64,000 nucleotides of DNA from Microthyrium microscopicum. Taxonomy: Eukaryota. Every line of letters starts with the position of its first letter. Position 1 is the stretch's first letter. The notes beneath the pieces are model-generated. The model saw only the letters and a list, made by a program, of their open reading frames with translations. It had not been told where the DNA came from and searched no databases. The stretch is from the NCBI GenBank assembly GCA_010405405.1, contig MU004236.1, positions 124,001 to 188,000 of the forward strand, given 5' to 3'. Positions 27,794 through 64,000 of the stretch are shown piece by piece. Both the position numbers and the translations under genes were made by a program.

Positions 27794-28016
27794 TATAAGG
27801 AGCTAATAGGCACAATAGGCAAGCAGAAAGTAGCTAGTATTATAGAATCTAAGTACAAAGAGAAGAGATCTAGAGATATAGCTATAAATATAAAGAAGTA
27901 GAGGCCTAAGATATCCTTAAATATACTAACCTTAAATAGGATAAAGAGATCTTATCTACAGGATTAAATCTTAGTATCTAAATACTATAATACTAAACCT
28001 ATAAGAATTCCTTATA
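27794..28016 (-). repeat. LTR of element A (3' LTR)
   Basis: Direct repeat of 42854-43076. Ends TA...TA, the RIP-altered form of TG...CA. Confidence 0.9.
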
Positions 28017-29414
28017 TAACTTCCTCCCTCTAAAATAAACTTTATAAGCTATATTCTAATCTAATTCATTCTAGTCTAGTCTAAGCTAATCTAGGCTAGG
28101 CTAGACTAGTCTATATAAATATAAAACTCCTTTATATATATTACTACTAAGAAATATAGTAATATACTATCTACTTACTTTAGTACTATCTAAATCTATT
28201 TAATAAAGAAAAGAATATCTATTTAAGCTAGTTTATAGTATTCTATAATTCCTTTAATAGCATAAATTAAAAACTAAACTAGGAGTATAATATTATTAGT
28301 AAAAATAAATAAATATAATGCTTTTTATACTATATAATCCTAATCTATAAGTAGGCTATTAGTATTATAATCTTCTTCTTTAACTTCATTTACTAATAAG
28401 GACTAAGAAGAGTATAGACTAAGCTTCTAAGGATAAAGCCTATAGAATTCTAATATAGTATTAGATATATTAATAGTATCTTTCTAGAGCTACTAAGTTT
28501 TATTATAAAATCCTATCTATTTAATTTTATATTTAAGCACTTTATTCTTACTTCTACTATTTTATTTACTATTAATAATAGTATTAATAAGCTATTCTTC
28601 TTTACCTTCTTTTTTACTAATAACTACTAAAAGTAGGTTTAATTTCTATAATAAGTATACGTTATTATTAATTAGATATAATAGCTAGGTATAAAATATT
28701 AAGTATATCTTTATTAATTTAAGAAAATCTAATTTATAGATTACTCTATTAATTTTACATAATATCTTAAAGGAACTAATACTTTTATTATTAAGTATTT
28801 TTAAAAAGCAAGTTATATTATAATTTTAAACATTAAGTTATACCTAGTCCTTAGAATAAAGATTTAGTACTAGATATTAATACTTATTAGTATAGAGCTT
28901 TTATTAAGCCTAAGCTTATACTAATTACTTCTTTAAGAACTTATAAAGCTTCTCTTAACTATCTTATACTTAATTAGTAGCAATAACTTTTTTACGTATT
29001 ATAATAGAAGCGTATAATGCTTTAGGTAGTAAATAGTAAGTAGACTTAAGTCCTAATTTTAGTAAAAAACTATTTTATGCCTTAAAAGGTATAAAACTAG
29101 TAGTAGTACTTATAGTAGAATTTACTACAAATTTAGTAAATAGTAATAGGGCTACTTAATTATTCTAATCCTAATTAATAAAGAATTTAAGATACTATTT
29201 TAAGGCAATAATAGTTATTTTAGTAATGCTATTAGATTCTAGATACTATATAGTACTTAATTTTAATATTACGCCTATATATTTATATAAGTAACTCTAA
29301 AAGGTAAATATAAATTAAGTTCCCTAATCTAAAAGAATAGAATCTAGCTAACTATATAGCTTTTATACTTAATTAATAAATGCTATAATTATTATTTCTA
29401 CTAAAAAACTTAGG

Positions 29415-29576
29415 TATTAGGGGTTGAACCTCCTAAAGCTATGCTTATTTAGGCTACCCCTATTGTATATAAATACTTTAATTAAAGAGTCTCTTAACTC
29501 TTCTTTCTCTCTAAGTTACCTTCCTATTTAGTAGGCTTATAATATAACTTATCTCTTCATTATCTAACCTATAATA
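29415..29576 (+). repeat. 5' LTR of element B
   Basis: Direct repeat of 36812-36973. Confidence 0.9.
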
Positions 29577-32500
29577 TTAGGTAACTTTAAAACTAACCCT
29601 TCTTTTTATCTACTTTCTCTTCGTCTATTAATAAATAGCTAGAATAGTAAACTAAGATTTCTTTCGCTTAATAACTATTAAATAAGATAGAGAAACGTTC
29701 TTTAAGGGCTTTACTTATAAGAATATAGAAGTATACTTTATATATATTAACTAATAATAAATAAAGCTATAAAACTACTTAGACGTATCCTAAGAAGTAA
29801 CTAATAATAGCTTATAATAAGTAATAAATAGCATTTTACTACTTAATAATACGCTTAATTTATCTATCTTATAATTACGTATAACTACTACTAGTTATAA
29901 ATAAGCCTTATAATAACTAAATAAGTTAACTAGTAAAATTTATATATAATTAAATAAAAATACGTAATAAATTATAGTAGTTTATACTAAACTCTAAGCC
30001 TAAGTTAATAGCTAGAATAAATAGCTTACTAATATCTATATTAGTAGTAAAATCTTTATATAATAAGTAAATAACACTACTTATAAGACGCTAACCTAGT
30101 AGTAGTAGTAGAAATAAAAATAACTCTAAAGAGAATTTATAACGCTTAGTATAACTCTTTCTTTAATATTAGCTATATTTTTTATTAAAGAAACCTTTAA
30201 CTATAACTATTACTCTTCTCTAATTCTATAAACTAATCCTTCTTAGACTTTAATTACGATAGCTAGATTAGTAGCTCTTCCTTTACCTTCTTTAATAAAT
30301 CTTTTAACTACTTAATATAAGTTACTTTAACTACTATTATAAAACCTTTAACTAGCTCTTCTAAACTTAAAATAATATTTATATAAAGACCTAACCCTTT
30401 ATCTTAGTTTTTACTAAATAATTAAAGTAAAATTATATATTAATAAATAGATTTACGTAGATAACTACGCCTAAATCTACTATATATTTAACTAGCTTAT
30501 AAAAGACGCTACTTAATAAGTCCTTCCTTAAATCTAGAATTCTACTAGCTATAGTATTATAAGTTTTAATAAGTTTATAAAATAGATAAACCTTTTCTTT
30601 TATAACCTATATAAAGAAATAAGAGCTTTAGTAAACTTTTAAAAAATCTAATAAAGAGGTAAAGAATAGAGAATCTTTTAGGCTAAGTTTTAGTAATATC
30701 TTATCTATACTAGAGTATAATTTTAAGCTACCTTTATCTAAATATAGTTCTTAAAAAATACTATAGATTCTAGTCTTAGGATAGCTCTAATTACTTACTC
30801 TTAGCTTAATAATTTAGATACCTTTACCTAAGAAGCTTTAAAGACTTAAGATTAAATAGTTTAAGCCTATATAAGCTATTATAGCCTAAGAAGCCTAAGC
30901 ACTAAAATAAGTACTTAGTAGAGTTAACTATTTAAGAATTAAGACCTAAACGTAATAGAAGGCATCTAAGTTAAAGCTAGCTAAGCCTAGTATAACTATT
31001 ATAAGTAAAATAACTTTTATTTTTATTATAGCTTAGTTAATTATAAAATTTAGGATTATAAATAAGTACTCTAAGCGTTATTTAGAAGTTAGAATTTCTT
31101 CTATAGCTAGGTTAGCTATAAATAAAAATAAGATAGAAGAGATACTACTAGAGGTAAATACCTATAGAATAATACTAATAAATTCTAGGCTAATATTATT
31201 AATACTTTAAATATTTTTTAAAGTAGCTAGCTAATAAGGATTACTATTACTTAACTAAGAAATAATAACTTTTATAATAATTTATATAATATTACTAATA
31301 TGGAATTAAAAAACTAATAAGCTTAAATTAAAAACGTAATACTAAGCTAGAAAATTATAAAAATATTATTTTAAGATAGCGTTAAAAATTCTTTACTTAG
31401 GATATAGTTATAAAGCCCTTTTTAATACTTTTAATAGTAAATTAACTTTCTTTATATATAGGCTTTATTAATAGTAGCTACTTAATCTATTCCTTTATAA
31501 ATCTCTACTTTACCTAAAGATATAAACTTAAATATATACTATTACCTTAGGTAATTCTTATTAAAAAAATAAATAATAAGGCTAAAGAAATCTATAAAAT
31601 AGTAATTATAAAAATTAATATTAAAGGCTATAAAGAAACTATTTAAGCCTTTATAGTAAAAAAGACCTTAAGCTATAATATAATCCTTAGCCTACCTTAA
31701 ATAAAGAAATAGGATATTATTCTCTATATAAAACCTAAGAAGCTAGTCTTTAATAAAATAAGTTATATAGTTATAAGTCTAAAGACTCCTTAAAAGAAAT
31801 ATAACTATATAGTAATTAGGGCTATAGTATTTAAGATACTTACTTAATAAGCTAAAAAGTAAGTAAAATAGTCTTAAGAAGGCTTAATACTAATTATATA
31901 AGTCTTTACTATAAGTCTTTATAACTTATAAAAAGCCCTTACTCTAAAGAAGTATATTAATCCTTATAAGAAGCTTTTTAAATAGTATTTAGATTACCTT
32001 AACCTTTTTTAAAAAGAGCTAGCTAATAAATAGTTATTTATCTAAGGTCTTTTTATAGACTATAAGATTAACCTAATCTTAAACGCTAATAGAAAAGAAC
32101 CTTAGTTACTTTAGTAGGTATTATACTCTATAAATTAGGATAAATTATTAGCTCTTAGAAGAATTCTTAATAATCTATTAAAAAGTAAGTTTATTTAAGT
32201 AAGTAACTTACTTACTAGAGTATTAGTTCTCTTTATTTATAAAGTAGATAGATTAATTTAGTTTTATTATAACTACTACGTATTAAATAAGTTAATTATA
32301 AAGAACTATTATTCTTTATTACTTATTTATAAGATACTAAACGCCTTAGAAAAAATATAATAGTTTACTAAGCTAAACGTATCTTAAGTATTTTATAAGA
32401 TTTAGATATATAAAGATAATAAATAGAAGATAGCTTTTTAAATACGATATAGCTTATTTAAATAGATAATAATACTATTTAAGTTATTAAATACTCTAAG

Positions 32501-35500
32501 CACTTTTTAAAGGTTTATTAACTTTACTCTTTAGAATATCTTAGATAACTATATTTCTATATACTTAGATAATATCTTAATCTTTAGCTTAAGTACTAAG
32601 AAGTAATATAAAGCCTATGTCTATAAAGTCCTTAAGTAGCTATAAAAAGTAGAACTCTACCTTAATATTTAGAAGTATAAATTTATAACTACTTAGATAA
32701 TATATTTAGGCTATATTATTAAAGCTAGATAAAGAATCTTAATAAACTTAGCTAAAGTTAAAGTAATCTAAGAATAGGAAGCTCTTAAGAACGTTTATAG
32801 AGTTTAAGCTTTTTTTAGCTTTATTAACTTCTATTATAGGTTTATACTAAACTTTTAAATAATTATAAAACCTCTTATTTAACTTACTTAGAAGAACGTT
32901 CTCTTTTTATTTAAAGACCTAAAAAGAGCTATATTTAAGGAACTAAAATAACTTTTTACTACTAACTAAATACTAGCCTTATTTAACTATAATAGAGAAA
33001 TTCTTATTTATATTAACTTTTCTAGTTATTTTTTAGGAGCTATACTAGTATAAAAGGATAAAATAGGTAAGTTTTAACTAGTAGCTTATTTCTTTAAAAA
33101 GTATAACTTTATTTAAAGTAACTACCTAATCTATAATAAAGAGATACTTATAATTATACTTACTCTAAAAGAATAGAACTTAGAACTATAAGTAGTAAAG
33201 AAGTTTAAAGTAATATTTAATTATAAGAACCTAGAGTATTTTATAAAACTATAAAAGCTTATAGAAAGATATATTTAATAGTTTATTAAACTTATAAAGT
33301 ATAATATAATAATTAAGTATTAACTAAGCTTATAGAATAGCGTAGTAGATAGTTTTTCTTATTATAAATAAGATATACTTTAAGACCTAACTAATAAGAG
33401 AATCTAAGCTAAAACTTTTTAACTACTTTATACTTAAGAAGATTAATTATTTAAACTACTATAAGCTTTATTTATTTATATTACTATTCTTTCTATAGTA
33501 ATTAAAAATAAATTAGTAAAGACTCTACTAGCTAATAAAGCTTTAATCCTTAGCTTACTACTACTAATATTAAACGTTTCTAAACTATTAATAACCTAAT
33601 AGAATAAAGTAGTATAGGTTAATAATATCTATTAAGTAGCTTATTAAATAATTAAAGCTAGTAAATAAAAGTTTCTTTTATTAATTATAAATATTAAGAT
33701 CTCTATTTCTAACTACTTAATTAATAGTAAGGATTACCTTTACTAGAGAGAATAACTATAAATTCTAAATTTAAAACCTTTATAGATAGTAATATTATAA
33801 ATAGCTTATATATTCTTAATTTAAAGCTATCCTAGCTATAAAAGTACTTATTAAGCTCTATAGCTATACTTCTTCTAGCTTAGAATTATAGCTAATATAA
33901 AGCGTTTTATAAAAAATTATAATATATATAGCTAATTAAAGGTTAATTATAAGTAGAAAAGAAGCTTCCTAAAGCCTTTACTTATTCTAAGCTAATAATA
34001 ATAAGAACTATTTATAGATTTTATAATAGACCTTCCTCTATTAAATAGATATATAATCTTAATAGTTATTACTAATTAGCTAAGTAAAGAAGTAATCCTA
34101 ATCTCCTTTACTTAGAAAGAAGCTAAAGACGTTATAACTATTTTTTTATAATACGTCTATTCTCTTTATAGTATTCTTAACGTAATTATTTATAATTATA
34201 ACTTAGTATTTATAAAAAACTTCTAGATAAAGTTTTATATACTACTATAAATAGAGCTATAGCTATTAACTATATTTTACTCCTAAATAAATAGCTCTAT
34301 AGAATAGTAAAATTTAGATATTAAAGCTAAAATATAAATATATATAAATTATATATAATTAAACTAGTTTTTACTAATATTAATACTTTAACTTATACTT
34401 AACTTATAATGCTTATTTATAATAGAACTCTTACTCTTCTTTCTATTTTATAGCTTTAAAAACTCTATTTTCTTAAACTTTCTTAAATAAGCTCTCTTAT
34501 TTAAATAGAAGAATACTCTAAAAAAGAAAAAGAAAAAAGCTACTTATATAATTTTAAAAGCTATAAAATAAGCTTAAGATACTATAACCTTTACTTAAGA
34601 AAGGATATAAGAATAAGCTAACTAAATAAGGATTTAAATACTTAAGTATAAAGTTAGTAATTAAGTCTAGCTAGACCTAAAGAATACTAAGACTAAATAA
34701 GCAAAGAAGAAGTTTAATTACTATTACTCTAAGTTCTAAGTTATAAAGGTAGTAAGCTTATATATAATTATACTAAATATACTATAGAGAATTAAGAAAT
34801 TTTATATTAACTTACTTAGACTAGTAATAGATAACCTATTCCTAAGTTAAAACGCTAATAATTCTTATCTACTACTAATCTTAGTTAAAAACTTAGATAA
34901 AGAGAAATAAAAGAAGTAGCTAATAGAAGAAATTATAGCTAAAAAATATAAGAAAATAATAAAGAGTAAACTTTATATAGTCTATATTATTAAATAAGTA
35001 AGTTATCTAGATATAATAAAAGAATTAATTAACTTTATTAAATAGTTAGAAGCCTATATAAAGTAGATAAAAAAGATAAAGTATATATAAAATAATTATA
35101 AAAGATTAGTACTAAATTAATTTATTCTTTAAGTATAACTAAGATTAAAAACTAGCCCTTCTATTATAGTAATTAACTCTATAGAGATATAATTAAAGGT
35201 ACTATTTATAATCTATATATAGAAATACTTTTTTTTTATTTATATTAAGACCCTCTTTTCTACTAAATAAAACTAAGAAATTATAAAAATATAAGAAAAC
35301 TAAAGAAATAAGATATATTTAATAAACCTCTACTATTAAGGAAGATAAACTTAAGTAGTGCCTTAGGGTATAAAAGAACTAAAGTAGATAGTTAATAGTA
35401 AAGGATTCTTATTCTTCTTAGTAATCTCCTCTTTATTATTATAAGAATACTTCTTACCTAAGCTAATATTATTATTATAAATATAGTTTAAATATATATT

Positions 35501-36811
35501 ATTATAAAATTCTAAAAGCTAAACATAATCTATATATTATAGCTAATTCTTTAAATTAGAATAGTTAATATAATAAGTATAATACTACTCTTTATAAGTC
35601 TTATTTTACTTATTTTTAGTAAAGAATTATAGAATATTTATATAATAAATACCTAAGGCTTTAAGATAACTAGCTTAGCTACTAGTTAACTAAATCGTGC
35701 TAAAGAAGCTTTAATAAATTATAATACTATAAATATTAAGCTATAAATTATTAATAAATTCTTTAAAGAAGGTATTTAATAAGTTAAGATGCTTATTAGA
35801 AGAGCTAAGAGGATAGTTAGTTATAATATAAAGGGCCTTACTTTATAAATATGTTAGTATAAATTAAGAAAGGCTAAAGAAGTATATATAGTCTAGTTAA
35901 TATAAAGTGCCTTAAATAAAGTATAGTTTTATAAATTATAATAGTTAATAACTATATATATCTTTTTATATTAGAAAGTAGTTAGTAAATAGAGATAAGA
36001 GTTATAAATAATATTATTCTAGTAATAAAGTAAAACTTAGTTAAGAAGGTAAAGGTCTTTATTTATATCGTTCTAGTAGGCTTTATATATAGCTACCTTA
36101 TATATAGTAAGTAAATAAGGTTAAGAAGCATTATAGTTAGTAACGTATATATAAAAAGAAGTAATAATAATAAGGATATAACTATTAAAGCTAATAATAT
36201 TATTAAAAGCGTTAATAATTAGGGTAGCTATCTCTATATAGTTAGTAAAGCTATAGCTATTATAATAAATAACTTATCTAATTAATTAATTAATTAATTA
36301 GGTAAGGAAGAAGAAACTTAATAAGAACTAATTAGAAGAGAAGAAGCTTTTTTAAAGTATAATAAAGAAAGAATAGTTAACTTTATAGAATAATATTACT
36401 TTATACTCTCTAAACGCATAAGTAGAAGCATAGTAACTTAACTATAGTTACGTTCTTTTAATCTTATTCCTTAATATTATAATAGAGCTCTAACTAAGTA
36501 TAAATAAAATAATTTATTAATTAAGTAACCTTTACGAGATTATAACTAAAAAGAATTAATATTATATACTAAGAAAGGGGCCTTATATCTAGAATTTAGT
36601 CTAAAATAGGCAAAATACTAGTATAGAACTAATAGTTAATAATCTAAGCTTTATATTTTATATCTAAAAGTAAATATATAGATCTATACGTTATAAATAA
36701 AAGCTTCGTCGTAAACTATAAGAATAGTAAGTATTAAATATAGCTAGATAAGATTAAGATCTTATAATTAACTTAGTATTTTAGCTAAAAATTTTTAGAT
36801 AGGAGGAATAA

Positions 36812-36973
36812 TATTAGAAGTTAAACCCCCTAAAGCTATACTTATTTAGGCTACCCCTATTTTATATAAATACCTTAATTAAAGAGTCTCTTAACTCTTC
36901 TTTCTCTCTAAGTTACCTTCCTATTTAGTAGGCTTATAATATAACTTATCTCTTTATTATCTAACTTATAACA
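36812..36973 (+). repeat. 3' LTR of element B
   Basis: Direct repeat of 29415-29576; ends in ...AACA. Confidence 0.9.
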
Positions 36974-39900
36974 TTAGGAGGATAATAAACTATTATAATT
37001 ACATTAAACGATTAATAATAACTATAATATACTAGTAGACTATACCCTAGTAGGTATAGTATAGTAATAAAATAGTAAAGTCTATAGAGATATTAGATTA
37101 AGCCTAATTTAGTAGAAAGAATAAGTAAAAGAGCCTTTACTTCTTTTAGTATACTAGTTTTAAAAAGATATAGTAATAGCCTTTAATATATTTCTTAATA
37201 TATTCTAATATTCTTAGCTACTAATAATCTTATTAAAGGTAGTAGTAGGTTATTATAGTTCCTTTATAACCTATAACTTTATATTAATATACTTATTTTA
37301 TTACTTTATTTTATAAATACGTCATTAGTATAAATAACTTTTATTAATAAAGAATAGTACTATTTAGTAAAGCCTTATAATCTATTAATTTAATTTAATC
37401 CTAATCTAGTATATTAAAGAGTAAGAAGTAGTCTTTCTATACTTTTACTAGTTAGATTATAATAAGTAACTTATCTTTCTTACTTATCTTTATTATTTTC
37501 TATATAAACTACTCTAGGTTAAAATTTAGGGATTTAGTATTAATTAGTAGTAAATTATCTAAACTAGCTAGAGCTTTATTTTAAGAGCTTCCTATAATAG
37601 GTTCTAAATTAGACTCCTCTACTATAGTAATATTTAGCTTATCTAATATAAGTATAGCTATTTATATAAAGGATAAGATAATAGGATTAATAAGTATTAT
37701 AGCTATTTTAATAGCTTATTTAGTACTAAATTAATATAAGAATAAAAGTAGTTAATACTATTACTTAACTTATAAGTCTTTATTACTTTAAGATATATCC
37801 TATAATCTTTAGGTTAAAGCATTAGCTTTACTATTATCTTTATTAAGATAATACTTAATTAAGAAGTAAAACTATAATAGGAATTTAGCCTAGCATATTT
37901 AATAGCATATAAGCTTCTTAGTTTTTATAAAGATTTAAAGATTTTAATAATCTAAGAATACCTTTATAATATCTTTAGTACTAAATAACTTAGGCTTCTA
38001 TTCCTTAAAAGTATAGATAATAATAAGTAGTTTCTTATTATAAATATTATAATTATATTCTATTAGTAATATCTTTTTAGAGAGGAAGATAACTAGTCTT
38101 AGATTACTATTTATATCTTTCTATAATAATATAGCAATATAAGCCTAATCTAATACGTCTATCTCTATCTAAGTTTTCTTAGTATAGTTAAAGTATTAAA
38201 GTATTAGTACGTTAGTAAAGTCTACTTTTAACTTCTTAAAAGCTTATTCTTTAGGCCTATTAGGGTCTTAAGGAAATATAGCTAAAGCATCCTTTTAAGT
38301 AAGATTTATTAAGGATACTACTATAGTAAAGTAATTAAAAATAAACTATTAATAGAAGTTAGCAAATCTAAGGAATACTTAAATATCTTTAAGATAGCTT
38401 AGTTATTCTTAGTTAATTATTATATTAACCTTTAAAGGGTCTATCTTAATGCTTTCTATAGTAATAATTAAACTAAGGTATTTTACTTCTTAAATAGTAA
38501 ACTCTAACTTCTTAATATTAAGGAATAAGCTTATATATTCTAATACATTTAGTACTAAATATATATAGGCGTTATATTCTTCTAGTATCTTACTAAATAT
38601 TAGAATATTATCTAAATAAATAGTTATAAAATTATTTAAAAACTATATTAGCGTATAATTAATATATACTTAGAATATCCTTAGTTCCTTTATAAGGCTA
38701 AAGGGTAGTACTTTAAACTTAAATAGGCTATAGCGTATTAAGAATACTATCTTATATTTATTTTTAAGTTTAATATAGATACGTTTAAAAGTAGTAATAA
38801 TATTAAACTTAGAGTAATACTTTACTTTTATAAGGCGTATAAGCGTCTTACTAATAAGTAGTAGAACGTTACTATTTTTAATAGTAATATTATTTAACCT
38901 ATAGTAATTAATATAGACGTAAATACCTTTTCCTAGCTTGCTTATATAAAGTATAGGTATAGTATATTAAGATTTTAAACCTATAGTAAAACTATACTAA
39001 AGTAGACTCTTAATATATTATTTAATAACTAAGGCTTATTTTAGTAATATTAATATAAGTTAGTGTTTTAGAATTTTAGTATTAGGAATAAAGTTAATAG
39101 CATAGTTATATTTATTATAATAAGGCGTAAGAATATTTAAACGCTTTAGATTAAAGACTTTAAAATATTAGTAGAAACGTTTTAGAATAAGTTTTAAGAT
39201 CTTCTCTTTTAATAGGTAAGGATAATCTTACTTATTTTACTATTTAAGATAATCTTCCTCTAATATAGTATATATAGTAAAGTTTATAGTAAATCTATTA
39301 TTATTATCTTTATTACTATTAAGAGGTTTCTTTTCTTTTTTATTATTAAAATCTTTAGGTTAGAATATATTAACTATAGCGTCTTTACGCTTTATTAGTT
39401 TTTTAAACGCTACTATAAATATTAAAGCAATATTTAATTCTTTAAGTAATTCTAAGTTTATAGATTATCCTTTTAAGTCTATAGTAATTAGGCGTTATAA
39501 TATAATATAATTTATAATATATTTTATACTATAGAAGGTTAATATTCTTAAATCTTTATATAGATTAACTTTATATTAATCTAGCTAGGGTACTTTTAAA
39601 ATTAGATTATAAAAGGCTACTTCTATAATAAAATAGCTAATCTACTTAACGTAATATTTAATATATAGGTTAAGGATAATAGCTTTATTAACTATAGATA
39701 CTAACTTATTATTAGTAAGTATTACTAAGTATAGATATATAAGTTAAAAAGTAGGAATATTATATTACTAAAGATAATAAGAGTTAATAATTCCTATTAC
39801 TCTACTACTAGTATTAATTAAAATATTAGTATTAAAGTAGGTTAAATATTATAGTATAAATACTAAGCTAATAGTAGTCTATTATAATCTAATAATAAAA

Positions 39901-42853
39901 TCTTTTTTTTTAATATCTTAAGGCTATACTACTAGTATAATAAAGGCTAGTAAAATATAAATAGTATATAAGTATACTAGTAAGACTTATCTTTTATAAA
40001 TAGTATCTTTATACTTAAGGTACTAAATATACTAGTAAAGGTAGCTAAGTATCTTCTTAGTCTTCTCTTATACCTTCTCTTTAATATTTTTATAGTCTTC
40101 CTTAGCCTAATAGAATATTTCTTTAGCTTTCTTAGTATTTTAGTATTACTCTTTATTATATTAATAAAATATCTCTTTTATACGCTTAGTATTAGTATTA
40201 AAGATACGTTTTTTTCTTTTATTATATATTTTAGTCTTATTTAGCTCCTCTTTATAACTTAGTAAAGAAGTATCTAGTTTAAAGACTAATAATTATTATC
40301 CTTAATAGCATTCTTTATAGAAGGTTATTATTCTTTTTAAACTTTTATAAATATTACTACTAAAGATATAACTAAGGCTTTAATTTTATTATTAAATAAG
40401 GGTTCTTAATTTTTATATAGCATAGTCTTATTAAAGTAGTAGTAATCCTTTTACTTATAATAGATATAACGTTTATTTATTTTTAAGGCGTTAAAAACGT
40501 CTATAGGACGATTAATGTTACTAGTTTTATTATTTTAGGCCCCTTTATTAGTAGACTAATTATTATTATAGCTATAAGAGGTATTATTTATAGTAATAGG
40601 CTTATAATTAATTTAGCACGTAACTAAGTAAAGTTAGGTATAAAATATAGCAAAATTACTAAAATACTAGCCTACTAGTAGGTTTATAAACTTATAATTA
40701 ATAAGATCTTATAATTTAATAATCTTCTTATGCTTAGATAGTTCTATATCTACTAAATTCGTTAAGAAGTAATTAATAAAGGCTTAAAGACTTTTTATAT
40801 TTTTTATCTTAATATCTAAGGACTTTAACTATACTTTAATATCTTTAAAAGTATTCTTAGAGTAGTAATAATTATCTAGATCTACCTATATTTCTTCTAT
40901 AGTATTATAAAAATTCTTTAACTTATAACCTCTATATATAATTATAATACTATAAGCAAAGTTAATATAATAGATACGAATAAACTTAATTTTTTTCTTT
41001 TTAATAGGGATATATAAGTATATATTCTTATTAAGAAGTATATCTAATATCTTCTTTTTTTATTATTTATAATATATAGGTTTATTTTTAAAATTATTAG
41101 GTTCTTTAAACTTTATAAGTATTATTAGGAAGGTATTATTAGCTATTAATAATAATAAGATATAGCGTATTCCTTAGGCTTAAAGCTATAAGTATAAAAC
41201 TACTAGATATATTACTTATAGTATAGAACGACTTAAGAAGATATTATCCTTTAAATTATTTAGGTTAATATAGGCTTAGTTTAAATTTATTTAAAGTCTA
41301 TTTTTAAGTTCTTAGACCTAGTAGTAAAGGTTAATAATTAACTTATAATATTATAAATTAGTATTATACTTTTTTACTAATTTAGTAAGAGCTACTTATT
41401 TATTTAAACAAGTAGTAGTTAGTACTAATTTATAGTTATAATAAATTTAGCTAGTAAGTACTTTAAGATCTATTATTATCTACTAATAAGTAGCTACTTC
41501 TTCTTATAGTACTTCTACTAATTTACTTAGTTAACCTACTTCTATATTAGCGTCTATAAGTTCTCTTATTAGCTAATTTTAAAGTTTTTAAGCAGACTAG
41601 TAACGTAATATTATGATTTAATTAATTACTAACGCAATATATAGTTATTTAAAGAATTAATCTTTTTCTATAAACTTAATATATTAGTCTAGATACTTAT
41701 TATTAGATATTAATATATAATATTTCTAGAGAATAGTAGAATTATTAGAATTATCCTAAAGAACTACTAATATCTATTTCTTTACCTTTAGTCTAACTTT
41801 ATATAATGCTTATATAAATAAAGGCTTTATACTAGTAAGTAATATAACTTTACTATTAAGGTTTACTAGTTTTAAAGGTAGATAGGATAGAAATAATATA
41901 AGAATATTATAAGGTTCTTTTTTGTATATTAGTAATTCTAGCTAATAGTAGATATTAATAGATAATTTTACTTTTAACGTACCTTTATCTAGTAGACTAT
42001 TAATAATAGTACTAAAGGTTAATACCTCTTTATCTTTTAATCTTAGCTCTTTTATTATATTTATTAGTATAATAGATACTATAGTTAATAGTCTAGTAAT
42101 AATCTTATAAGGTTATTAAATATTAATACTAACTTAAGTATTTTAATAGAAAAATTCTTTATCTTTATTATTTAAAGCTACTTTAGGTAATAAAAGTAAC
42201 TTTTTAATAGATTTAACTATTAAGATACTCTTTTACTATAGTATTAATATAATAATAGACTATTAATTAGTTTTTATATTTAGGATAACTAGCTTCTTAG
42301 TAAAATAGCTATCTCTACTATAATAGAGTAAAACTAAGCAACTTTAAATACTAATATTACTACGCTTATAGGCAATATAAGAGTTATTTAAGAATACTAG
42401 TTTAAGACTAGAAATAAGTAGCGCCTTACTTATAGTAATATATAGCTAAATAATATAGTGTTTCTTAATAAATTAGAACTAATTTAATAGATTAATAGAT
42501 ATAAATTTAATAAAGAATAAGGTAAGTATATTTTATAGTTAGTAGAAAGAAAGTAGTATAAACGCCTCTATAAATCTAAGAAGAATACTATAAGGTAAAG
42601 CTTAAGCCTCTAAGTAGTCTTTATTCTAGTAAATAATGCTAAATTTACGTTACTTTAGTTAGTATTTATAAATTTGCTAGCACCTTTAGTAATACTAATC
42701 CTAATTAAGGGTAATATTACTAAATACTAATTAGTTAAATCTATAGCATAACTATAGTAATTTGATAGGAATTATTAAACGCCTCTATGTATTTATTAAT
42801 AATGCGTAAAATATATATAGAGCGTAAAATTTAATATAGAGGTATTTAGATTA

Positions 42854-43076
42854 TGTAAGGAGCTAATAAGTATAATAGGCAAGCAGAAAGTAGCTAGTAT
42901 TATAGAATCTAAGTATAAAGAGAAGAGATCTAGAGATATAGCTATAAATATAAAGAAGTAGGAGCCTAGGATATCCTTAGATATATTAACCCTAAATAGA
43001 ATAAAGAGATCTTATCTATAGGATTAGATCTTAGTATCTAAACACTATAATACTAAACCTGTAAGGATTCCTTACA
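42854..43076 (-). repeat. LTR of element A (5' LTR)
   Basis: Intact TGTAAGGA...TCCTTACA termini; direct repeat of 27794-28016. Confidence 0.9.
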
Positions 43077-55785: not shown

Positions 55786-58700
55786 ATGATTATAATCATG
55801 CCAGTCATTCGCTTAATTCACACTCTTTTGCTTGCGTTTGCAATTCCCGCGCTCGGCGCTGCGCTCCCTTCTGATGGAGCTCCTGGTGATGTGATAACTT
55901 TGGAAGGCCTCATTCGAGTGCCAGTAGTCACAGTCGACGCAGCAGAAGTCCAAAACAATGTCACGGATAGTGGTATATCTAAACGACAATCAACGGCAGA
56001 TCTCGACAACTTTGGAGGCAGCTTTTACCTCATTACTTGTGAGTATACGCCACAGATGCAGCAGCATCGTCCCGATCACTGCTAATCATATTTCGCTCGA
56101 CAGTATCGTTGGGATCAAATAGTCAATCTGCTATGGTACAATTGGATACTGGAAGTGTAGAGCTATGGGTCGATCCAATTTGCGCATCTTCACAAAGTCC
56201 GGATTTCTGCAACGCTTTGCCACGATATGACCCTACAACATCAACAACTTCGCACAACTTGCAGACACAATTCGGTATTCAATACGGCTCCGGAAGTGTT
56301 CAGGGAACCTACTATACAGATACTGTAGCTAGTGGATCCGCTTCCATTCCAGGATTACAATTTGGAGTAGCGACTCAAAGTGACTTTTTGTCTTTTGGAA
56401 TATTGGGTCTAGGCCCAGTCATCTTTCCAGCACCATATGAACCTTTTATTTATCAGCTTGCGACTCAAAATACTATCGCCAGTCCTGCCTTCAGTTTGGA
56501 TCTACGTTCAATCAATGACCCCGAAGGATCCATCATCTTTGGAGGACTGGACACCATGAAGTATAAATGCAATCTGGCAAAAGCGCCAATCATTCCTTAC
56601 TATCAAGCACCCGATGGTGTTCCACGGTATGATATCAAGTTCCAACTCACAGCCCTGAGATCTGTCGTATCTAACAGCTTACAGTTTTTGGATAAACTTC
56701 AACGGCGTAGCAGTCACCACCGCGTCTGGATCTAATGCTATCCCTCTTGCTCAACCACAACCAGTATTCTTGGATTCCGGGGCTACTTTAAGTTACCTTC
56801 CTGCTGCTCTGTTCAACGCTATCGGAGCCGCGTTCCCTGGAGCGACATACTATTCCCCTACTGGATACTACATTGCGCCTTGTAATACAGTGGGATCGCT
56901 GGATTTCACTTTCGGGAACACTCTTGTTCAAGTCCCTTTTAGTGAGTTCTTACTCGTTGCCGACAACACTGGCCAAACATGTATCCTTGGAATGCAAGCA
57001 GCGTCTGGTCCTCAATACATTCTTGGTGATTCCTTTCTGAGAGCGGCTTATGTGGTTTTTGATCTCGGAAACAGCAATTTATGGATTGGTCAAGCTGATG
57101 ACTGCGGCAGCAATCTTGTTGCTATTGGTTCTGGAGCAAACTCTGTGCCTCAAGTTCCTGGCTGCAGTTGCCCGGTCTCTTCATCGTCTAGTATGACTTC
57201 TACCGCATCATCGACGTTGAGTTCATCCTTAACAACGTCCAGTGGTGTTACATCAAGCACCAGCTCTGTTACGTCAAGTTTCAGTCCTATCGCATCAAGC
57301 AATAGCTCTATCGCATCAAGCACTAGCTCTATCGCATCAAGCACCAGCTCTATCGCATCAAGCACCAGCTCTGTCGCAACAAGTTCTTCAATCAGCTCCT
57401 CTGCTGCTGGCTCATCAGTTACCAGCTCCAGCTCATCAATCGCTAGTTCCAGCTCTGCCGCATCTAATTCTACAGTTAGCTCGTCTGTTGCCAGCTCCAG
57501 CTCGTCTGTTGCCAGCCCCAGCTCGTCTGCTGTCAGCTCCAGTTCATCAGTTGCCACTTCTAGTTCATCAGTTGCCATTTCTAGTTCAATAGTTGCTACT
57601 TCTAGCTCTATCGCGTCAGGTTCTACAGTTAGCTCGTCTGTTACTAGCTCCAGCTCATCGGTTGCCAGTTCTAGTTCATCAGCTACCAGTTCTAGCTTTG
57701 TCGCGTCAAGTTCTACAGTTAGCTCATCAGTTGCCAGTTCTAGTCCATCACTTGCCAACTCTAGCTCTGCCGCATCAAGTTCTATAATCAGCTCATCTGT
57801 TGTCAGTTCTAGTTCGTCTGTTGCAAGTTCGTCTACTGCAAGTTCGTCTACTGCAAGTTCGTCTACTGCAAATTCGTCTACTGCAAGTTCGTCTACTGCA
57901 AGTTCGTCTACTGCAAGTTCTTCTATTGCAAGTTCATCTACTGCAAGTTCGTCTACAGCAAGTTCTACTGCAAGTTCGTCTACTACGAGTTCTTCTGCAA
58001 CAGGTCTGGCTACTTCCAGCTCTTCGACCCTGACATCAAGTGCTTCTTCATCGACTTATTCTTCATCGACTGCTTCCCCATCGAGCATGTTATCCTCCAG
58101 CGCATCATCGAGTGCAGCTTCATCGAGTGCGCTGTCGTCCAGCTCGTCATCCAGCCTCTCGTCCAGTATTCTCTCGTCATCCTTTGCTTCGTCGTCTTCG
58201 GCTACTAGTACCACTTCCGGCTCTTCGTCTTCCGTTGCTGTGTCTAGTAGCTCAAATCCAACTATCACATCGAGCTCGATGATGAGCCAGCCTTCAAGCT
58301 CCACAGTAACTAGTTCAGCCGTGAGCAGCAGCAGCAGTCAGACGTCAAGCTCGATCTCCTCGTCCTCTGAGAGCAGCAGTCCTACTTTGTCGGCCAGCAG
58401 TAGTGTTCCATCGGGCAGTTCTGTCTCTCGAACGTCTAGCAGCATTGCATCCTCTAGCTTCATTTCAATGTCCACGGAAAGCAGCAGCATTGGATCTTCA
58501 AGCAGCTCATACATTCTGTCAAGTGCTACCTCATCCGTCAAACCCAGCACAAAATCGTCTTCTACGAAATCGAGTTCGACCAAATCGAGTTCGACCAAAT
58601 CGAGTTCGACCAAATCGAGTTCGATCGTGTCGAGTACGAAGTCCTCCTCTGCCAGTATTAGCTCAACTACATCTAGCAAACTTAGCTCCACTTCTTCGTC

Positions 58701-59411
58701 TTCGAATTCCAAGACTTCTTCATCGACTCAATCGACCAAGGCTACATCCTCTACCACTTCGACGAAGGCTACATCATCCATCAAGTCGACTTCGTCTGTA
58801 CTCAGCAAAATATCGAGTACCTCTTTGCGTCCATCATCAAAAACAACGGCAACGTCCTCTGCACGCACGTCTAGCAAATCTAGTTCTCGCGCCTCGTCAT
58901 CTAAGCCAGCCACATCCTTTCATTCGTCCAGTCAAACATTCAAAACATCAACCAAGACTTCGACGACTTCAACGATTCCATCGGTTTCTGGAGCTGTTGA
59001 CCCAACTGGTAATGGAAAATGTGGTCCTCTTAACAAGAATTACGTTTGCTCCAACAGCGAATGCTGCAGTATTTAGTAAGTTGCCCCTTGAAAATTAAAT
59101 CCATTTTACTGACAAGACTAGTGGCTACTGTGGCACTTCCAAGAGTTATTGCGGATCAGGAAACTGCAACCCATTATTCGGCACATGCACAGATCCTGCC
59201 TCAGCGCCCGTTAACGTCGATCCTACAGGTGAGGGAAAATGCGGTCCAAATAACGGTGGCTTCAAATGCTCTGGTTCTCAGTGTTGCTCCCAGTAGTAAG
59301 TACTTCAAATTCGTGTTTTGTTCATAACTAATGCGAAGCAGTGGATGGTGTGGAACAGGGAAGGCATACTGCCAGACAGGTTGTCAGTCGGCATTTGGAA
59401 CCTGTACTTGA
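55786..59411 (+). CDS. Secreted A1 aspartic protease (yapsin/SAP-like) with Ser/Thr-rich stalk and two C-terminal hevein-type CBM18 domains
   Basis: Exons 55786-56038, 56104-56626, 56685-59075, 59122-59295 and 59342-59411 (start may be ATG 55798). Signal peptide, KR pro-site, DTGS and DSGA catalytic motifs, YGSG flap, ILGDSFLR. Tail CG...C...CCSIYGYCG...YC...C and CG...C...CCSQYGWCG...YC...C. Confidence 0.88.
57289..58625 (+). repeat. Coding minisatellites in the Ser-rich stalk
   Basis: 21-nt ATCGCATCAAGCACCAGCTCT (IASSTSS) at ~57289-57372, 15-nt GCAAGTTCGTCTACT (ASSST) at ~57823-57985, 15-nt AAATCGAGTTCGACC (KSSST) at ~58552-58625. Confidence 0.85.
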
Positions 59412-61318: not shown

Positions 61319-61800
61319 GTCTTCAACGAGGCTATTGGTGTGACAGATTTTGGAGTTGTTTTAGTCTGCCAAGCACAAAAGGGTTGTACGAATCTACGAC
61401 TTCAAAGTTATAAGAGGTTGAAGTTGGAGACATCGAGTCATCAAGATACCGTGTTCCCCACCCGGCCCCCGACTTTCATTATATAAAGCCCCCCTTATAG
61501 GCTATGACGAAAAATTGGTCATAATGATGGCATTACTAGCGTGAAGGGATTCAAGAAAAGAATCTTTAGCCTCGTAGCTAAAATATTCGAATGAAGAAAT
61601 GTTTCTGAAACTCCAACGAGAGCAAGATGGTACTTCCAAAGTTCCAAAACTACTAGTACCTTCCGAATTAGATATTGAACGAATGGTCTGAGAAGAATAT
61701 TATTGGAAGAATCTGGCCGAAAACTAAAAGTAATAAAGAGAGTTGATGTTGGCGTCCAATAGAATATGAGGTAACTACGGCATTTTATAGTTCATTGCCC

Positions 61801-62871
61801 TTAAGGGATTTCTGATAGTACGATATCTCCAGGTTGGGATTTGACTTTGAATGTCAGGCCGGTTTGACGCTCTTCTGCCCACTTTCTAACATCTTCATAG
61901 TTCTTGCACTTGTGCTTTGTGTTGAAGTCTACCCAAGCGCCTACATCTTTGACCCAGTATTGACCAAAAATGCTTGTATCGGCTGTACACATTAACTGTT
62001 GGCGAAGAATATCTAAGCAGTGACCTGTTGCACCGCGGTTAATGGATTTGGTTGTATAAGCAGATTGAATTAGAACATGCCTGCGTGCTGAATGATAACA
62101 GGTTCATCGTTCGCGAAAGGTCCAAGTCCTTGCTTTTGATAGTATCGATAGTTCCAGAACGATGTTTGGCGTAGTAAATTCTACACTTTTAGCAACCTTA
62201 ACGTATAATGGCGAAGGGGTTCGCTCACCAGACAGTGCATATGATGCATTGCTTCAACATAACCGACAAACCCTCCTCCAGCCGATTGCTCCAACTTCAC
62301 TTGACCTTTGTGGAGTCCAAACTTCGGTCCTTCTTTTGCAGGAATTGAAACGGGCCGTACTATTAAGTTGTAACTTAGTGCCTCAATACTAGGAAGTTGA
62401 TCATAGCGATGGCTCACTTACAGTCAACTCCGAGTGCAATCCATGCTTTATCAACATCGTACCCACTGCCGGCCAGTTGTCGATATATCGTCGGTTTTGA
62501 AAAACTGCCATTGAAAGGTACGGTATTGTAGCTAACACCAATGTCCTGAAAGATTGGTGAGTCTATACGACTGTCAGCATTGTCAACCCTGGGTTCACTA
62601 TGTGGAGAAACGAACCATACTGTTCCGTATACCGGCTACAGACACGATCTAGATCATGATGAATGGTGAATCCGAAAATAAATATCACGTTTCCAATCAG
62701 TGAGGCTGCAAATGTTGTGTATATGACTGCCAACAGTACTCTTTTTCTTTGCTCCGCCTTGCAAATGTTCTGACCTATATCAATGTCATCTTGAAGCAAA
62801 TTGGCTTGAGACGAGCTTGCATGAAGTGTCTCTTCGCCATGGTAGCTGATATTCAATACATGATAGTCCAT
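61801..62871 (-). CDS. DUF3328 / UstYa-family oxidase
   Basis: Five exons: 62871-62616, 62562-62422, 62359-62229, 62180-62081 and 62024-61801. N-terminal transmembrane helix, VDKAW, two HxxHC motifs (HHMHCL and HAGHCLDILRQQLMCTAD), C-terminal DFNTKHKCKNYEDVRKWA. Confidence 0.92.
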
Positions 62872-63647
62872 GATGCTTTCTACAGTGCGACAGAAGTTCC
62901 AGCTCCAGGAGTATTGAAGGTGCAAAAAGCCCAGATAGAGCCGACTTAGACGACTATTTGAGAAATTTGTAAAACAGCTTCACTCGGAAACCAGAGTAGA
63001 ATGTTGGGGAGATCTGTAGGTAGGACGAGGTACAAACGCTTGTCGAAGCAGTCCTAGAGAGATTCCTAGCATTACAATCTGCTTTCTAAGACAATTGTTC
63101 AGGCATTGATACGCGACACTATCTGAGTAGATCCAGCTTGTCTATATTGAGCTGTTCCTACTAATCTGCCAGGTCTCGCCCCTTTACTTTTATCTGATCT
63201 GTGCCCATATCGCCGAGTGATATATGTGACATTCGGTTGCATTGAAATCCTTTCGCACCAATTTAGGTAGATAGAATATACTATTTTGGGATTGACTGAT
63301 TCATGCCAATAGCCGACGTGGGTAGCCTGTTGGTGAAACACTTCAACGTTGCGCTCCTGTGGAATCTAGGGAATATCATGGCTCCTTCTGACGCAAAAGA
63401 CTTGCCTGATCAAGAAGGAGTTAGTTCAAGAGCGGCGATGCATGAGCGGCGAAGGTTTGGGATCTGTCCGAGGCACCGAAACAGTGCAGTCCTTCATGGA
63501 GTCGATTTGTGAGTTGGCCTTGCGTCTCTGTCGTCTTTATAATGAGCTCATCAGGTCGTCAAGCCATTCAACAATCCAATTTTCTATCATTTTCAGCACC
63601 AAACCATAATTGTCATCCTTACCAAACAACCAGACCATTTCTTGATC

Positions 63648-63872
63648 ATGTTGAGCCTCGTATTCTTGGGCCTCTTTGCTGCCGGAGCTGTGTTTGGAGC
63701 TGCGATACCAAAGGAAGCCGGTGTAAGACTCCATTGCATATTTTTTTCCCTACCGGATCCAATAATCGTAGCAGAACTGACAAATTCTCTCGTACAGGTT
63801 GGTGAACCCATTCAATTTTATGGACAGTACAGTCAATACTCTGGCTATGTACCAACAGTGAAGGCAGAATAG
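63648..63872 (+). CDS. 49-aa secreted Tyr-rich peptide, candidate RiPP precursor
   Basis: ATG in catcATG-like context (gatcATG). Exon 63648-63722, intron 63723-63797 (GTAAGA...CTGAC...CAG), exon 63798-63872. Product MLSLVFLGLFAAGAVFGAAIPKEAGVGEPIQFYGQYSQYSGYVPTVKAE. Confidence 0.7.
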   Translation: MLSLVFLGLFAAGAVFGAAIPKEAGVRLHCIFFSLPDPIIVAELTNSLVQVGEPIQFYGQYSQYSGYVPTVKAE

Positions 63873-64000
63873 CTAGAGGTGGAGGCGGCTGTCTTCAACT
63901 AAACCAGGCTGGACAGTACTAGATGTTCATAGCATAGCATAGCAGTTTATGATCCATGAGCCATTCAAATTCACTGTGTCGTGTGCTATTTAAATAAGTA

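What the first reader, a model, noticed from the sequence alone, without database searches (positions are those of the whole stretch)
61801..63872. Candidate new fungal RiPP system: DUF3328/UstYa oxidase divergently paired with a tiny secreted YxxYxxYxxY peptide
Seen: a complete five-exon DUF3328 gene with two HxxHC motifs shares a ~780-bp divergent intergenic region with a two-exon 49-aa ORF. The ORF has a signal peptide (MLSLVFLGLFAAGAVFG-A), a short spacer and the core FYGQYSQYSGY, with Tyr at i, i+3, i+6 and i+9. Established: UstYa-family enzymes oxidatively macrocyclise secreted precursor peptides, often through Tyr ether links (ustiloxin, phomopsin, asperipin-2a), and those precursors carry multiple core repeats separated by Kex2 KR sites. 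This peptide has a single core and no dibasic site. Inference: a minimal two-gene dikaritin-like pathway making a multiply Tyr-crosslinked peptide or a crosslinked secreted mini-protein, which Kex2-repeat-based mining and standard gene callers could miss.
Basis: partly seen in the sequence, partly recalled or inferred. Interest (0 to 1): 0.88.

Follow-up and report, generated by a model that had tools for sequence, protein, structure and literature searches.

The report
Copper oxidase gene beside tiny peptide
A fungal gene for a peptide-modifying copper enzyme sits back to back with an unannotated 49-codon reading frame for a secreted, tyrosine-rich peptide that could be its substrate, but nothing yet shows that the peptide is made, conserved or modified.

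Summary
On the minus strand, 62871-61801 is a complete five-exon UstYa/DUF3328 gene: 283 aa, PF11807, two HxxHC motifs and one N-terminal membrane helix. Its fourth intron is GC-AG. The public model of the same gene (Microthyrium microscopicum, 240 aa) skips exon 4 and so loses the second HxxHC. A two-exon, 49-codon ORF starts 776 bp upstream on the other strand (63648-63872). It has a signal-peptide-like start, a canonical 75-nt intron, gene-like codon usage, a TATA-like box and the core FYGQYSQYSGY. It has no Cys and no dibasic site.

The interpretation stays untested. Three protein searches and one language-model search found no relative of the peptide, and no public protein covers the ORF. 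Synteny could not be checked because no fungal genome collection was available. The 61.8 kb to the left holds no Kex2-repeat precursor, tyrosinase or methyltransferase. The window ends 128 bp to the right of the ORF. The enzyme belongs to a patchily distributed paralogous UstYa clade.

My odds:
- Enzyme-substrate pair: about 0.3.
- Real but unrelated peptide gene: about 0.3.
- Chance ORF: about 0.33.

If true, this is a new variant (single-core, Kex2-independent) of a known kind. Interest 0.5.

The parts
61801..62871 (-). UstYa/DUF3328 gene, five exons (62871-62616, 62562-62422, 62359-62229, 62180-62081, 62024-61801), 283 aa
   Evidence: Model built. PF11807. Exons 1-3 and the end of exon 5 are identical to public protein P0001. 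The full length aligns with 23 of 23 chosen homologues at 36.6-48.0% identity.
62025..62080 (-). Intron 4, 56 nt, GC-AG (donor GCATGT). The public model misses it, skips exon 4 and loses the second HxxHC.
   Evidence: Exon 4 plus the start of exon 5 restore the block ending in HAGHC, which is present in all 23 aligned homologues.
62683..62739 (-). Predicted single membrane helix (residues 45-63), following a roughly 44-residue N-terminal tail
   Evidence: Highest 19-residue Kyte-Doolittle mean is 2.02. This matches the type II architecture described for CctR (PMC12435403).
62232..62246 (-). First HxxHC motif (HHMHC, residues 171-175)
   Evidence: The H and HC positions of the motif are invariant in the alignment.
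62017..62087 (-). Second HxxHC motif (HAGHC, residues 208-212), split by intron 4 (62087-62081 and 62024-62017)
   Evidence: The H and HC positions of the motif are invariant in the alignment.
62872..63647 (.). 776-bp divergent intergenic region
   Evidence: No Rfam match over 61500-64000.
63538..63542 (+). TATAA, 110 nt upstream of the small ORF's ATG. Apart from one ATG at 63542 that overlaps the box, there is no ATG between it and the start codon.
   Evidence: This is a consensus match only.
63648..63722 (+). Small ORF exon 1 (25 codons): signal-peptide-like start, with A at -3 of the ATG
   Evidence: crude hydrophobic-core and -3/-1 rule. Codon score is 0.166 and is the best of six frames.
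63723..63797 (+). Putative 75-nt intron: GTAAGA ... ACTGAC ... ACAG, in frame with no stop
   Evidence: It is the only match to the strict intron pattern in 61-64 kb. Its codon score in the ORF frame is -0.044.
63798..63872 (+). Small ORF exon 2 (24 codons plus stop)
   Evidence: Codon score is 0.232 and is the best of six frames.
63816..63848 (+). Proposed core FYGQYSQYSGY, with Tyr at i, i+3, i+6 and i+9

Best explanation
Shown: 62871-61801 (minus strand) encodes a UstYa/DUF3328 protein.

By family knowledge, this is a type II membrane protein. Its domain sits in the lumen of the secretory pathway, works as a disulfide-linked homodimer, and binds two coppers through the HxxHC...HxxHC histidines. 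It uses O2 and electrons to attack C(sp3)-H bonds.

Probable: 63648-63872 (plus strand) is an unannotated two-exon gene for a 49-aa pre-peptide. It enters the same compartment through a signal peptide.

Inferred: the two genes share the 776-bp divergent promoter. The enzyme cross-links the single core FYGQYSQYSGY in the ER or Golgi, most likely through Tyr-O to beta-carbon ether bridges as in ustiloxin, phomopsin and asperipin-2a. Signal peptidase and unidentified proteases, not Kex2, then release the product. This would be a minimal, single-core, Kex2-independent dikaritin-like pair.
For: Enzyme:
- PF11807 at 73.1 bits.
- Both HxxHC motifs, a membrane helix at residues 45-63, and Cys at 78, 175, 212, 222 and 249.
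- Full-length alignment with 23 of 23 homologues.
- Mechanism of the family: PMC12435403 (part 1 of 3 read, plus passages), which also reports that the cyclase AprY depends on copper and O2.

ORF gene-likeness:
- A crude signal-peptide rule finds 7 ATG ORFs of 40 aa or more in the window. Four are inside transporter genes, two are one antisense ORF at about 16.44 kb, and one is this ORF. Shuffles give 1.1 +/- 1.2.
- The spliced codon score is 0.198 bits per codon. True in-frame windows average 0.152 and stop-free wrong-frame windows average 0.001. Only 8.4% of 620 wrong-frame windows score as high.
- Unspliced, the ORF ranks 3rd of 40 intergenic first-ATG ORFs. The antisense control scores -0.048.
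- Both exons score best in the proposed frame, and the intron part scores lower.
- The strict intron pattern matches once in 61-64 kb, exactly here. The chance rate is about 7.75 per 88 kb of strand.

Fit to the chemistry:
- Asperipin-2a has the core FYYTGY, cyclised through Tyr ethers by one DUF3328 enzyme in a four-gene cluster (PMC6514808 passages).
- DUF3328 genes peak at the position next to precursor genes. 65.6% of DUF3328-linked repeats contain Tyr, against 38.2% of unlinked ones (PMC7329392 passages).
- A single-core precursor has been raised as a possibility for lichen DUF3328 clusters that lack repeats (PMC12048977 passages).
Against: - No relative of the peptide was found in about 5.8 billion clustered proteins (1 candidate, none at E<=10; 291 candidates, none).
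- In 1.84 billion representatives there were 2 hits. Both are repetitive junk, matching only query residues 13-44, which is the signal-peptide end plus translated intron.
- The ESM Atlas gave no usable hit.
- No public protein covers the ORF, although the neighbouring gene is annotated.
- No paralogue of the peptide lies in the window.
- The 31 largest ORFs of the window include no tyrosinase, methyltransferase, S41 peptidase or Kex2-repeat precursor.
- 68% of 9399 DUF3328 genes are not near any Kex2-repeat precursor, and the family also tailors non-ribosomal peptides. An orphan enzyme therefore needs no adjacent substrate gene.
- The ORF stays open without splicing, so the intron is not needed to explain it.
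- The strict intron pattern is no more frequent in the window than in shuffles (5 against 7.75).
- The Tyr periodicity was picked after the fact.
Confidence: 0.3

Rival explanations
1. The small ORF is a chance open frame in the enzyme gene's upstream region. The UstYa protein acts on a substrate encoded or made elsewhere.
For: - No homologue and no public annotation.
- Signal-peptide-like ORFs arise by chance at about 1.1 per 44 kb, and one clearly spurious example exists in this window at about 16.44 kb.
- The strict intron pattern is not enriched over shuffles.
- 8.4% of stop-free wrong-frame windows reach the codon score.
- The ORF is only 49 codons, so every statistic is weak.
Against: Several independent gene-like features coincide in one 225-nt stretch:
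- a signal-peptide-like start;
- a canonical donor, branch and acceptor;
- the best-of-six-frames codon score in both exons but not in the intron;
- A at -3, and a leader with no ATG apart from the one overlapping the TATA-like box;
- a position where a divergent gene is expected.
Confidence: 0.33
2. The ORF is a real gene for a small secreted, Cys-free peptide, but it is functionally unrelated to its neighbour. The UstYa enzyme tailors another metabolite or protein.
For: - Gene-like features as above.
- DUF3328 enzymes carry out hydroxylation, halogenation and isomerisation on non-ribosomal peptides as well as RiPP cyclisation.
- Most DUF3328 genes are not next to recognised precursors.
- Adjacent fungal genes are usually unrelated (general knowledge).
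Against: A small secreted peptide with four Tyr in eleven residues, lying directly beside and divergent from a member of a family known for Tyr cross-linking in the secretory pathway, is an unlikely coincidence if the gene is real. No alternative substrate-related gene is visible in the window.
Confidence: 0.3
3. The two exons are the 5' part of a longer gene. Its last exon(s) would lie beyond the window end, for example by use of the GTGAAG 14 nt upstream of the stop codon as a donor.
For: - The window ends 128 bp after the stop codon.
- A GT donor-like site lies just upstream of the stop, as read from the sequence.
Against: - No public protein of 131-2000 aa shares the exon sequences at E<=10.
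- The frame closes with a stop followed by an A/T-rich tail.
Confidence: 0.07

Closest known systems
Asperipin-2a locus of Aspergillus flavus (aprA precursor, aprY DUF3328 cyclase, aprT, aprR)
   Same: - A very small cluster in which a single DUF3328 enzyme makes several Tyr-ether macrocycles.
- The core FYYTGY is Phe/Tyr-rich, like FYGQY... here (PMC6514808 passages).
- AprY is reported as dependent on copper and O2 (PMC12435403 passage).
   Different: - AprA carries many core copies separated by Kex2 sites. Here there is one core and no KR or RR.
- No transporter or reductase of the apr types was seen next to the pair.
- No sequence comparison with AprY was possible, because its sequence was not on hand.
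Ustiloxin and phomopsin dikaritin clusters (UstA/UstYa/UstYb/UstQ; PhomA/PhomYa-e/PhomQ)
   Same: - A DUF3328 enzyme with two HxxHC motifs.
- A secreted precursor with Tyr in the core.
- Tyr(i) to residue (i+2) ether rings (PMC7329392 and PMC6514808 passages).
   Different: Those clusters have multi-copy Kex2-processed precursors, a tyrosinase, a methyltransferase and several DUF3328 paralogues. None of these is in the window.
CctR (cyclochlorotine hydroxylase), the biochemically defined DUF3328 enzyme
   Same: - An N-terminal tail, one membrane helix and a lumenal helical domain.
- The HxxHC(x)nHxxHC motif and conserved C-terminal cysteines.
   Different: - CctR hydroxylates a non-ribosomal cyclic peptide inside an NRPS cluster.
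- No NRPS lies in this window.
Lichen DUF3328 clusters without repeat precursors (Parmeliaceae clans R1/R2)
   Same: These are DUF3328 genes with double HxxHC for which no repeated precursor could be found. The authors raise a single core peptide as one explanation (PMC12048977 passages).
   Different: - Those clusters hold further biosynthetic genes, and no candidate single-core peptide was named in the passages read.
- Here a concrete candidate ORF exists but no further cluster genes.
Plant BURP-domain copper cyclases (burpitides)
   Same: A binuclear copper site of four histidines that cross-links Tyr/Trp side chains of ribosomal peptides. The analogy was drawn by the CctR authors.
   Different: An unrelated fold and kingdom. 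Cores are often fused to the enzyme. This is an analogy only.

Membership tests
UstYa / DUF3328 (Pfam PF11807) | Match to the family HMM above the curated cut-off | tested here: met
   The exon-5 piece scores 73.1 bits against a cut-off of 25, E=3.8e-20. The exon-3 piece scores 20.2 bits. All 120 listed homologues carry PF11807.
UstYa / DUF3328 (Pfam PF11807) | HxxHC(x)nHxxHC motif | tested here: met
   HHMHC at residue 171 and HAGHC at residue 208. Their H and HC positions are invariant in the 24-row alignment.
UstYa / DUF3328 (Pfam PF11807) | Single N-terminal membrane helix with a lumenal C-terminal domain (type II) | tested here: met
   The hydropathy peak is 2.02 at residues 45-63, with no second peak examined by a dedicated predictor. 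The architecture is as described for CctR. Orientation was not tested.
UstYa / DUF3328 (Pfam PF11807) | Copper binding, disulfide-linked homodimer, O2 dependence | not testable with these tools
   Cysteines at 222 and 249 lie in conserved columns. Biochemistry is needed.
Dikaritin RiPP cluster (classical definition, Ding et al. as quoted in PMC12048977) | [quoted passage not shown] | tested here: inconclusive
   It passes a crude home-made rule. No SignalP-type predictor was available, and expression is unknown.
Dikaritin RiPP cluster (classical definition, Ding et al. as quoted in PMC12048977) | Repeated core/recognition motifs separated by Kex2 (KR) sites | tested here: not met
   There is one core and no KR or RR. 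No tandem repeat lies in the ORF. No KR-rich ORF lies outside other genes near the locus.
Dikaritin RiPP cluster (classical definition, Ding et al. as quoted in PMC12048977) | Tyrosinase, methyltransferase, several DUF3328 genes, transporter or S41 peptidase nearby | tested here: not met
   None was found among the 31 largest ORFs of the window. There is only one DUF3328 locus. The neighbours are an amino-acid permease and an aspartic protease. The right flank beyond 64000 was not seen.
Dikaritin (wider definition: DUF3328 as the class-defining enzyme, Montalban-Lopez 2021 as quoted in PMC12048977) | A ribosomal peptide modified by a DUF3328 enzyme | not testable with these tools
   This needs expression and mass spectrometry.
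Kex2-processed repeat proteins (KEPs, Umemura 2020) | Signal peptide plus multiple repeats flanked by dibasic sites | tested here: not met

The most novel reading that the evidence does not exclude
A minimal two-gene fungal RiPP system. One UstYa-family copper oxidase would install up to three consecutive Tyr-based ether (or aryl) bridges along a single (Y-x-x)3-Y core of a 49-aa, Kex2-independent precursor, giving a ladder-like polycyclic peptide. This would show that single-core precursors, invisible to repeat-based mining and to gene callers, accompany some of the many 'orphan' DUF3328 genes.
Probability: 0.15. Interest if true: 0.8.

Novelty: new variant of a known kind. Interest (0 to 1): 0.5.

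Why it matters
About two thirds of fungal DUF3328 genes are not near any recognised precursor (31.8% of 9399 are; PMC7329392). Authors working on lichen clusters have already wondered whether single-core precursors exist (PMC12048977).

A verified single-core, Kex2-independent precursor beside one enzyme would give a new search rule for fungal RiPPs. It would also give a very small system, one enzyme and one short peptide, for studying DUF3328 copper chemistry now that in-vitro assays exist.

If the ORF is not expressed, the locus is simply an orphan UstYa gene with an annotation error.

Tried and rejected
1. My first exon 1/2 junction (donor GTATGG, acceptor at ...TTTCAG) broke the frame. I replaced it with GTTCGT...ATAG, which agrees with the public model and the homologues.

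2. I considered that the enzyme is a universally conserved housekeeping orthologue, because homologues occur in powdery mildews and many classes.
- A 50-row tree rejects this. It used 49 of the 120 listed hits, all named and mostly full-length. Unnamed jgi/lgn/ena rows and short partial rows were left out.
- It shows two paralogous clades, each with SH-aLRT 100.
- The window protein lies in the patchier clade A: 18 rows, comprising Onygenales plus scattered Dothideo-, Leotio- and Chaetothyriales members. Many of the non-Onygenales members sit on end branches near 1.0 (the window's own is 0.93).
- The Eurotiales, most Leotiomycetes and the powdery mildews are in clade B (32 rows).
- Amylocarpus and Elasticomyces have copies in both clades.
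- The class labels in that tree are mine, recalled, and do not come from a call.

3. HMMER hits P0121 and P0122 are repetitive translations that match only the translated intron region.

4. ESM Atlas on residues 51-74 gave no usable hit.

5. The PDB sequence search with homologue P0002 gave 0 hits at E<=1.

6. Rfam on 61500-64000 gave 0 hits.

7. The paper search for 'UstYa' alone was swamped by an author name. The search for 'Microthyrium microscopicum' returned 22 papers, and none of the 10 listed concerns RiPPs by title. The search for 'single core peptide' plus 'fungal RiPP' returned 4 papers, 3 listed. None describes a characterised single-core dikaritin in the passages I read.

9. Synteny was not checked. 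Linkage in other fungi therefore stayed unchecked.
Full report
**What is there**

The region was read directly and all stop-to-stop frames were listed. On the minus strand I built a five-exon gene. Its exons are 62871-62616, 62562-62422, 62359-62229, 62180-62081 and 62024-61801. That gives 852 nt and 283 aa, with introns of 53, 62, 48 and 56 nt.

My first guess for the exon 1/2 junction broke the frame and I replaced it. Intron 4 has a GC donor (GCATGT...CAG).

Pfam places the exon-5 piece in PF11807 (UstYa) at E=3.8e-20, 73.1 bits against a cut-off of 25. The exon-3 piece scores 20.2 bits. Exons 1, 2 and 4 alone, and both translations of the small ORF, matched nothing.

**Whose gene it is, and an annotation error**

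I searched the exon-5 piece against longer proteins. This gave 202 proteins at E<=0.001 among 206 candidates, and all 120 listed carry PF11807.

The best hit is P0001, which NCBI names as a hypothetical protein of Microthyrium microscopicum (240 aa). That species belongs to the Dothideomycetes, order Microthyriales. P0001 is identical to my model through exons 1-3 and the end of exon 5. It jumps from just after the first HxxHC to the middle of exon 5. It therefore lacks 43 residues, including the second HxxHC.

My model aligns over its full length with 23 of 23 homologues, which I chose from the 120 as full-length and named. Identity is 36.6-48.0%. The H and HC positions of both HxxHC motifs, VDxAW, RQQxMC and DFNTxHxC are invariant or nearly so. 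The five-exon model is therefore the better one.

**What the enzyme is**

The protein has the following features:
- an N-terminal tail of about 44 residues;
- one hydrophobic helix at residues 45-63;
- HHMHC at residue 171 and HAGHC at residue 208;
- cysteines at 78, 175, 212, 222 and 249;
- an NGS sequon at 103.

This is the architecture described for CctR. CctR is a type II membrane protein of the Golgi, endosome and vacuole. It is a disulfide-linked homodimer, and its four histidines hold two coppers. It needs O2 and electrons (PMC12435403; part 1 of 3 read; passages). The same paper reports that the asperipin cyclase AprY also depends on copper and O2.

No solved structure matches homologue P0002 by sequence.

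**Where it sits in the family**

I built a quick IQ-TREE tree of 50 rows: the window model plus 49 named hits. Unnamed and short rows were left out, and the class labels are mine. The tree splits into two clades, each with SH-aLRT 100.
- Clade A has 18 rows and includes the window protein. It holds all the Onygenales plus scattered Dothideomycetes, one Leotiomycete and one Chaetothyriales member. Many of the non-Onygenales members have end branches near 1.0, and the window protein's own end branch is 0.93.
- Clade B has 32 rows. It holds the Eurotiales, most Leotiomycetes including two powdery mildews, and others.
- Two genera have copies in both clades.

The window gene is therefore a member of a patchy paralogue. 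It is not the widely kept copy, which fits an accessory role but proves nothing.

**The small ORF**

The ORF lies on the plus strand. The ATG is at 63648, exon 1 runs to 63722, the 75-nt intron is 63723-63797 and exon 2 runs to the stop at 63872. The intron has a GTAAGA donor, an ACTGAC branch 16 nt before the ACAG acceptor, is in frame and has no stop. The product is 49 aa spliced or 74 aa unspliced.

The rest has no Cys, and Lys only at 22 and 47. The core FYGQYSQYSGY is at 63816-63848. The ATG has A at -3. A TATAA lies at 63538. Apart from one ATG at 63542 that overlaps that box, there is no ATG between it and the start codon.

**Is it more than chance?**

- *Signal peptide.* A crude signal-peptide rule finds 7 ATG ORFs of 40 aa or more in the window. 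Four are inside transporter genes, two are one antisense ORF near 16.44 kb, and one is this ORF. Shuffles of the 44 kb of normal G+C give 1.1 +/- 1.2.
- *Codon usage.* I trained codon log-odds on 15 long ORFs of the window. The spliced ORF scores 0.198 bits per codon. True in-frame 49-codon windows average 0.152 (n=248) and stop-free wrong-frame windows average 0.001 (n=620). Of the wrong-frame windows, 8.4% score as high.
- *Frame preference.* Each exon scores best in its proposed frame. The intron part scores -0.044.
- *Rank among intergenic ORFs.* Unspliced, the ORF ranks 3rd of 40 intergenic first-ATG ORFs. The spurious antisense control scores -0.048.
- *Intron pattern.* The strict intron pattern matches only here within 61-64 kb. 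However, it is not enriched in the window overall (5 observed against 7.75 +/- 2.6 in shuffles), so it is weak on its own.
- *Tyr motif.* YxxYxxYxxY occurs once in the 44 kb, against 0.105 expected. Looser Tyr-rich 11-mers occur 8 times.

Taken together, I put the chance that this is a real gene at about two in three.

**Conservation**

- The word-indexed search found 1 candidate of 40-130 aa and 291 of 131-2000 aa. None scored E<=10.
- The exhaustive HMMER search of 1.84 billion representatives found 2 hits. Both are repetitive translations that match only residues 13-44, which is the translated intron.
- The ESM Atlas gave nothing for residues 51-74.
- No second copy lies in the window.

So the peptide has no detectable relative, and the public protein set holds no model over it. 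Short, fast-evolving, unannotated precursors would give the same result, so this is weak evidence against. Linkage beside related enzymes in other fungi, which is the key test, could not be run because no fungal DNA collection was on hand.

**Neighbourhood**

Pfam on the 31 largest ORFs gives, to the left of the enzyme gene:
- an amino-acid permease (59.6-61.4 kb, minus strand);
- an aspartic protease followed by a Ser/Thr-rich stalk of about 600 aa (56.0-59.1 kb);
- two dehydrogenases;
- a GH114 hydrolase.

There is no tyrosinase, methyltransferase, S41 peptidase, NRPS or second DUF3328 gene. No tandem-repeat or KR-rich precursor-like ORF was found. The window ends 128 bp after the small ORF, so the right flank is unknown.

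**Reading**

The enzyme family and gene structure are shown. That the ORF is a gene is probable. That the peptide is the enzyme's substrate is inference from four points:
- adjacency and divergent orientation;
- a shared compartment;
- a Tyr-rich core like asperipin's FYYTGY;
- published statistics that DUF3328 genes peak next to precursor genes and that their precursors are enriched in Tyr.

Against it stand the missing conservation, the missing accessory genes and the fact that most DUF3328 genes have no recognised precursor nearby.

My odds are:
- pair: about 0.3;
- real but unrelated gene: about 0.3;
- chance ORF: about 0.33;
- part of a longer gene: about 0.07.

**Comparison and novelty**

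The enzyme is a member of UstYa/DUF3328. The locus fails the classical dikaritin definition, which requires repeated Kex2-flanked cores and a tyrosinase, methyltransferase and so on. It could only qualify under the wider definition that takes the DUF3328 enzyme as class-defining (as quoted in PMC12048977).

In the papers I could search, single-core precursors appear only as a conjecture. If confirmed, this would be a new variant of a known kind. As it stands, it is a well-formed hypothesis with a cheap decisive test.

Noticed in passing
window 62025-62180 (minus strand): The public protein model of this gene (P0001, 240 aa) skips exon 4 and the start of exon 5, apparently because intron 4 is GC-AG. 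It therefore lacks the second HxxHC motif. Motif-based mining for 'double HxxHC' DUF3328 proteins would miss it.
   Followed up: yes
window about 25500-43000: An 18-kb block of about 20% G+C holds only one ORF of 90 aa or more (38670-38966). It has a strong RIP-type dinucleotide signature. TpA/ApT is 1.65 and (CpA+TpG)/(ApC+GpT) is 0.08, against 0.68-0.71 and 1.31-1.32 in the flanks. It is probably a degraded repeat island.
   Followed up: partly
window 56043-59076 (plus strand): An aspartic protease domain is followed by a Ser/Thr-rich, tandemly repetitive stalk of about 600 aa ending in a Cys-containing tail. It lies two genes from the small ORF. The peptide has only monobasic sites (Lys 22 and 47). 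Whether such a protease could process it is pure speculation.
   Followed up: no
proteins P0002-P0120, tree: The nearest UstYa homologues fall into two paralogous clades, each with SH-aLRT 100. Amylocarpus and Elasticomyces have copies in both. Many are named 'Tat pathway signal sequence' in public records, a name that does not fit a eukaryotic lumenal copper enzyme.
   Followed up: partly
window 16273-16446 (minus strand): A 58-aa antisense ORF inside the Vps39-like gene also passes the crude signal-peptide rule, but it has a negative codon score (-0.048). It served as a spurious control.
   Followed up: yes
proteins P0121, P0122: Two library 'proteins' of 539 and 294 aa are tandem repeats of a motif of roughly 30-60 aa that looks like translated non-coding repeat DNA. 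They matched only the translated intron of the query.
   Followed up: no
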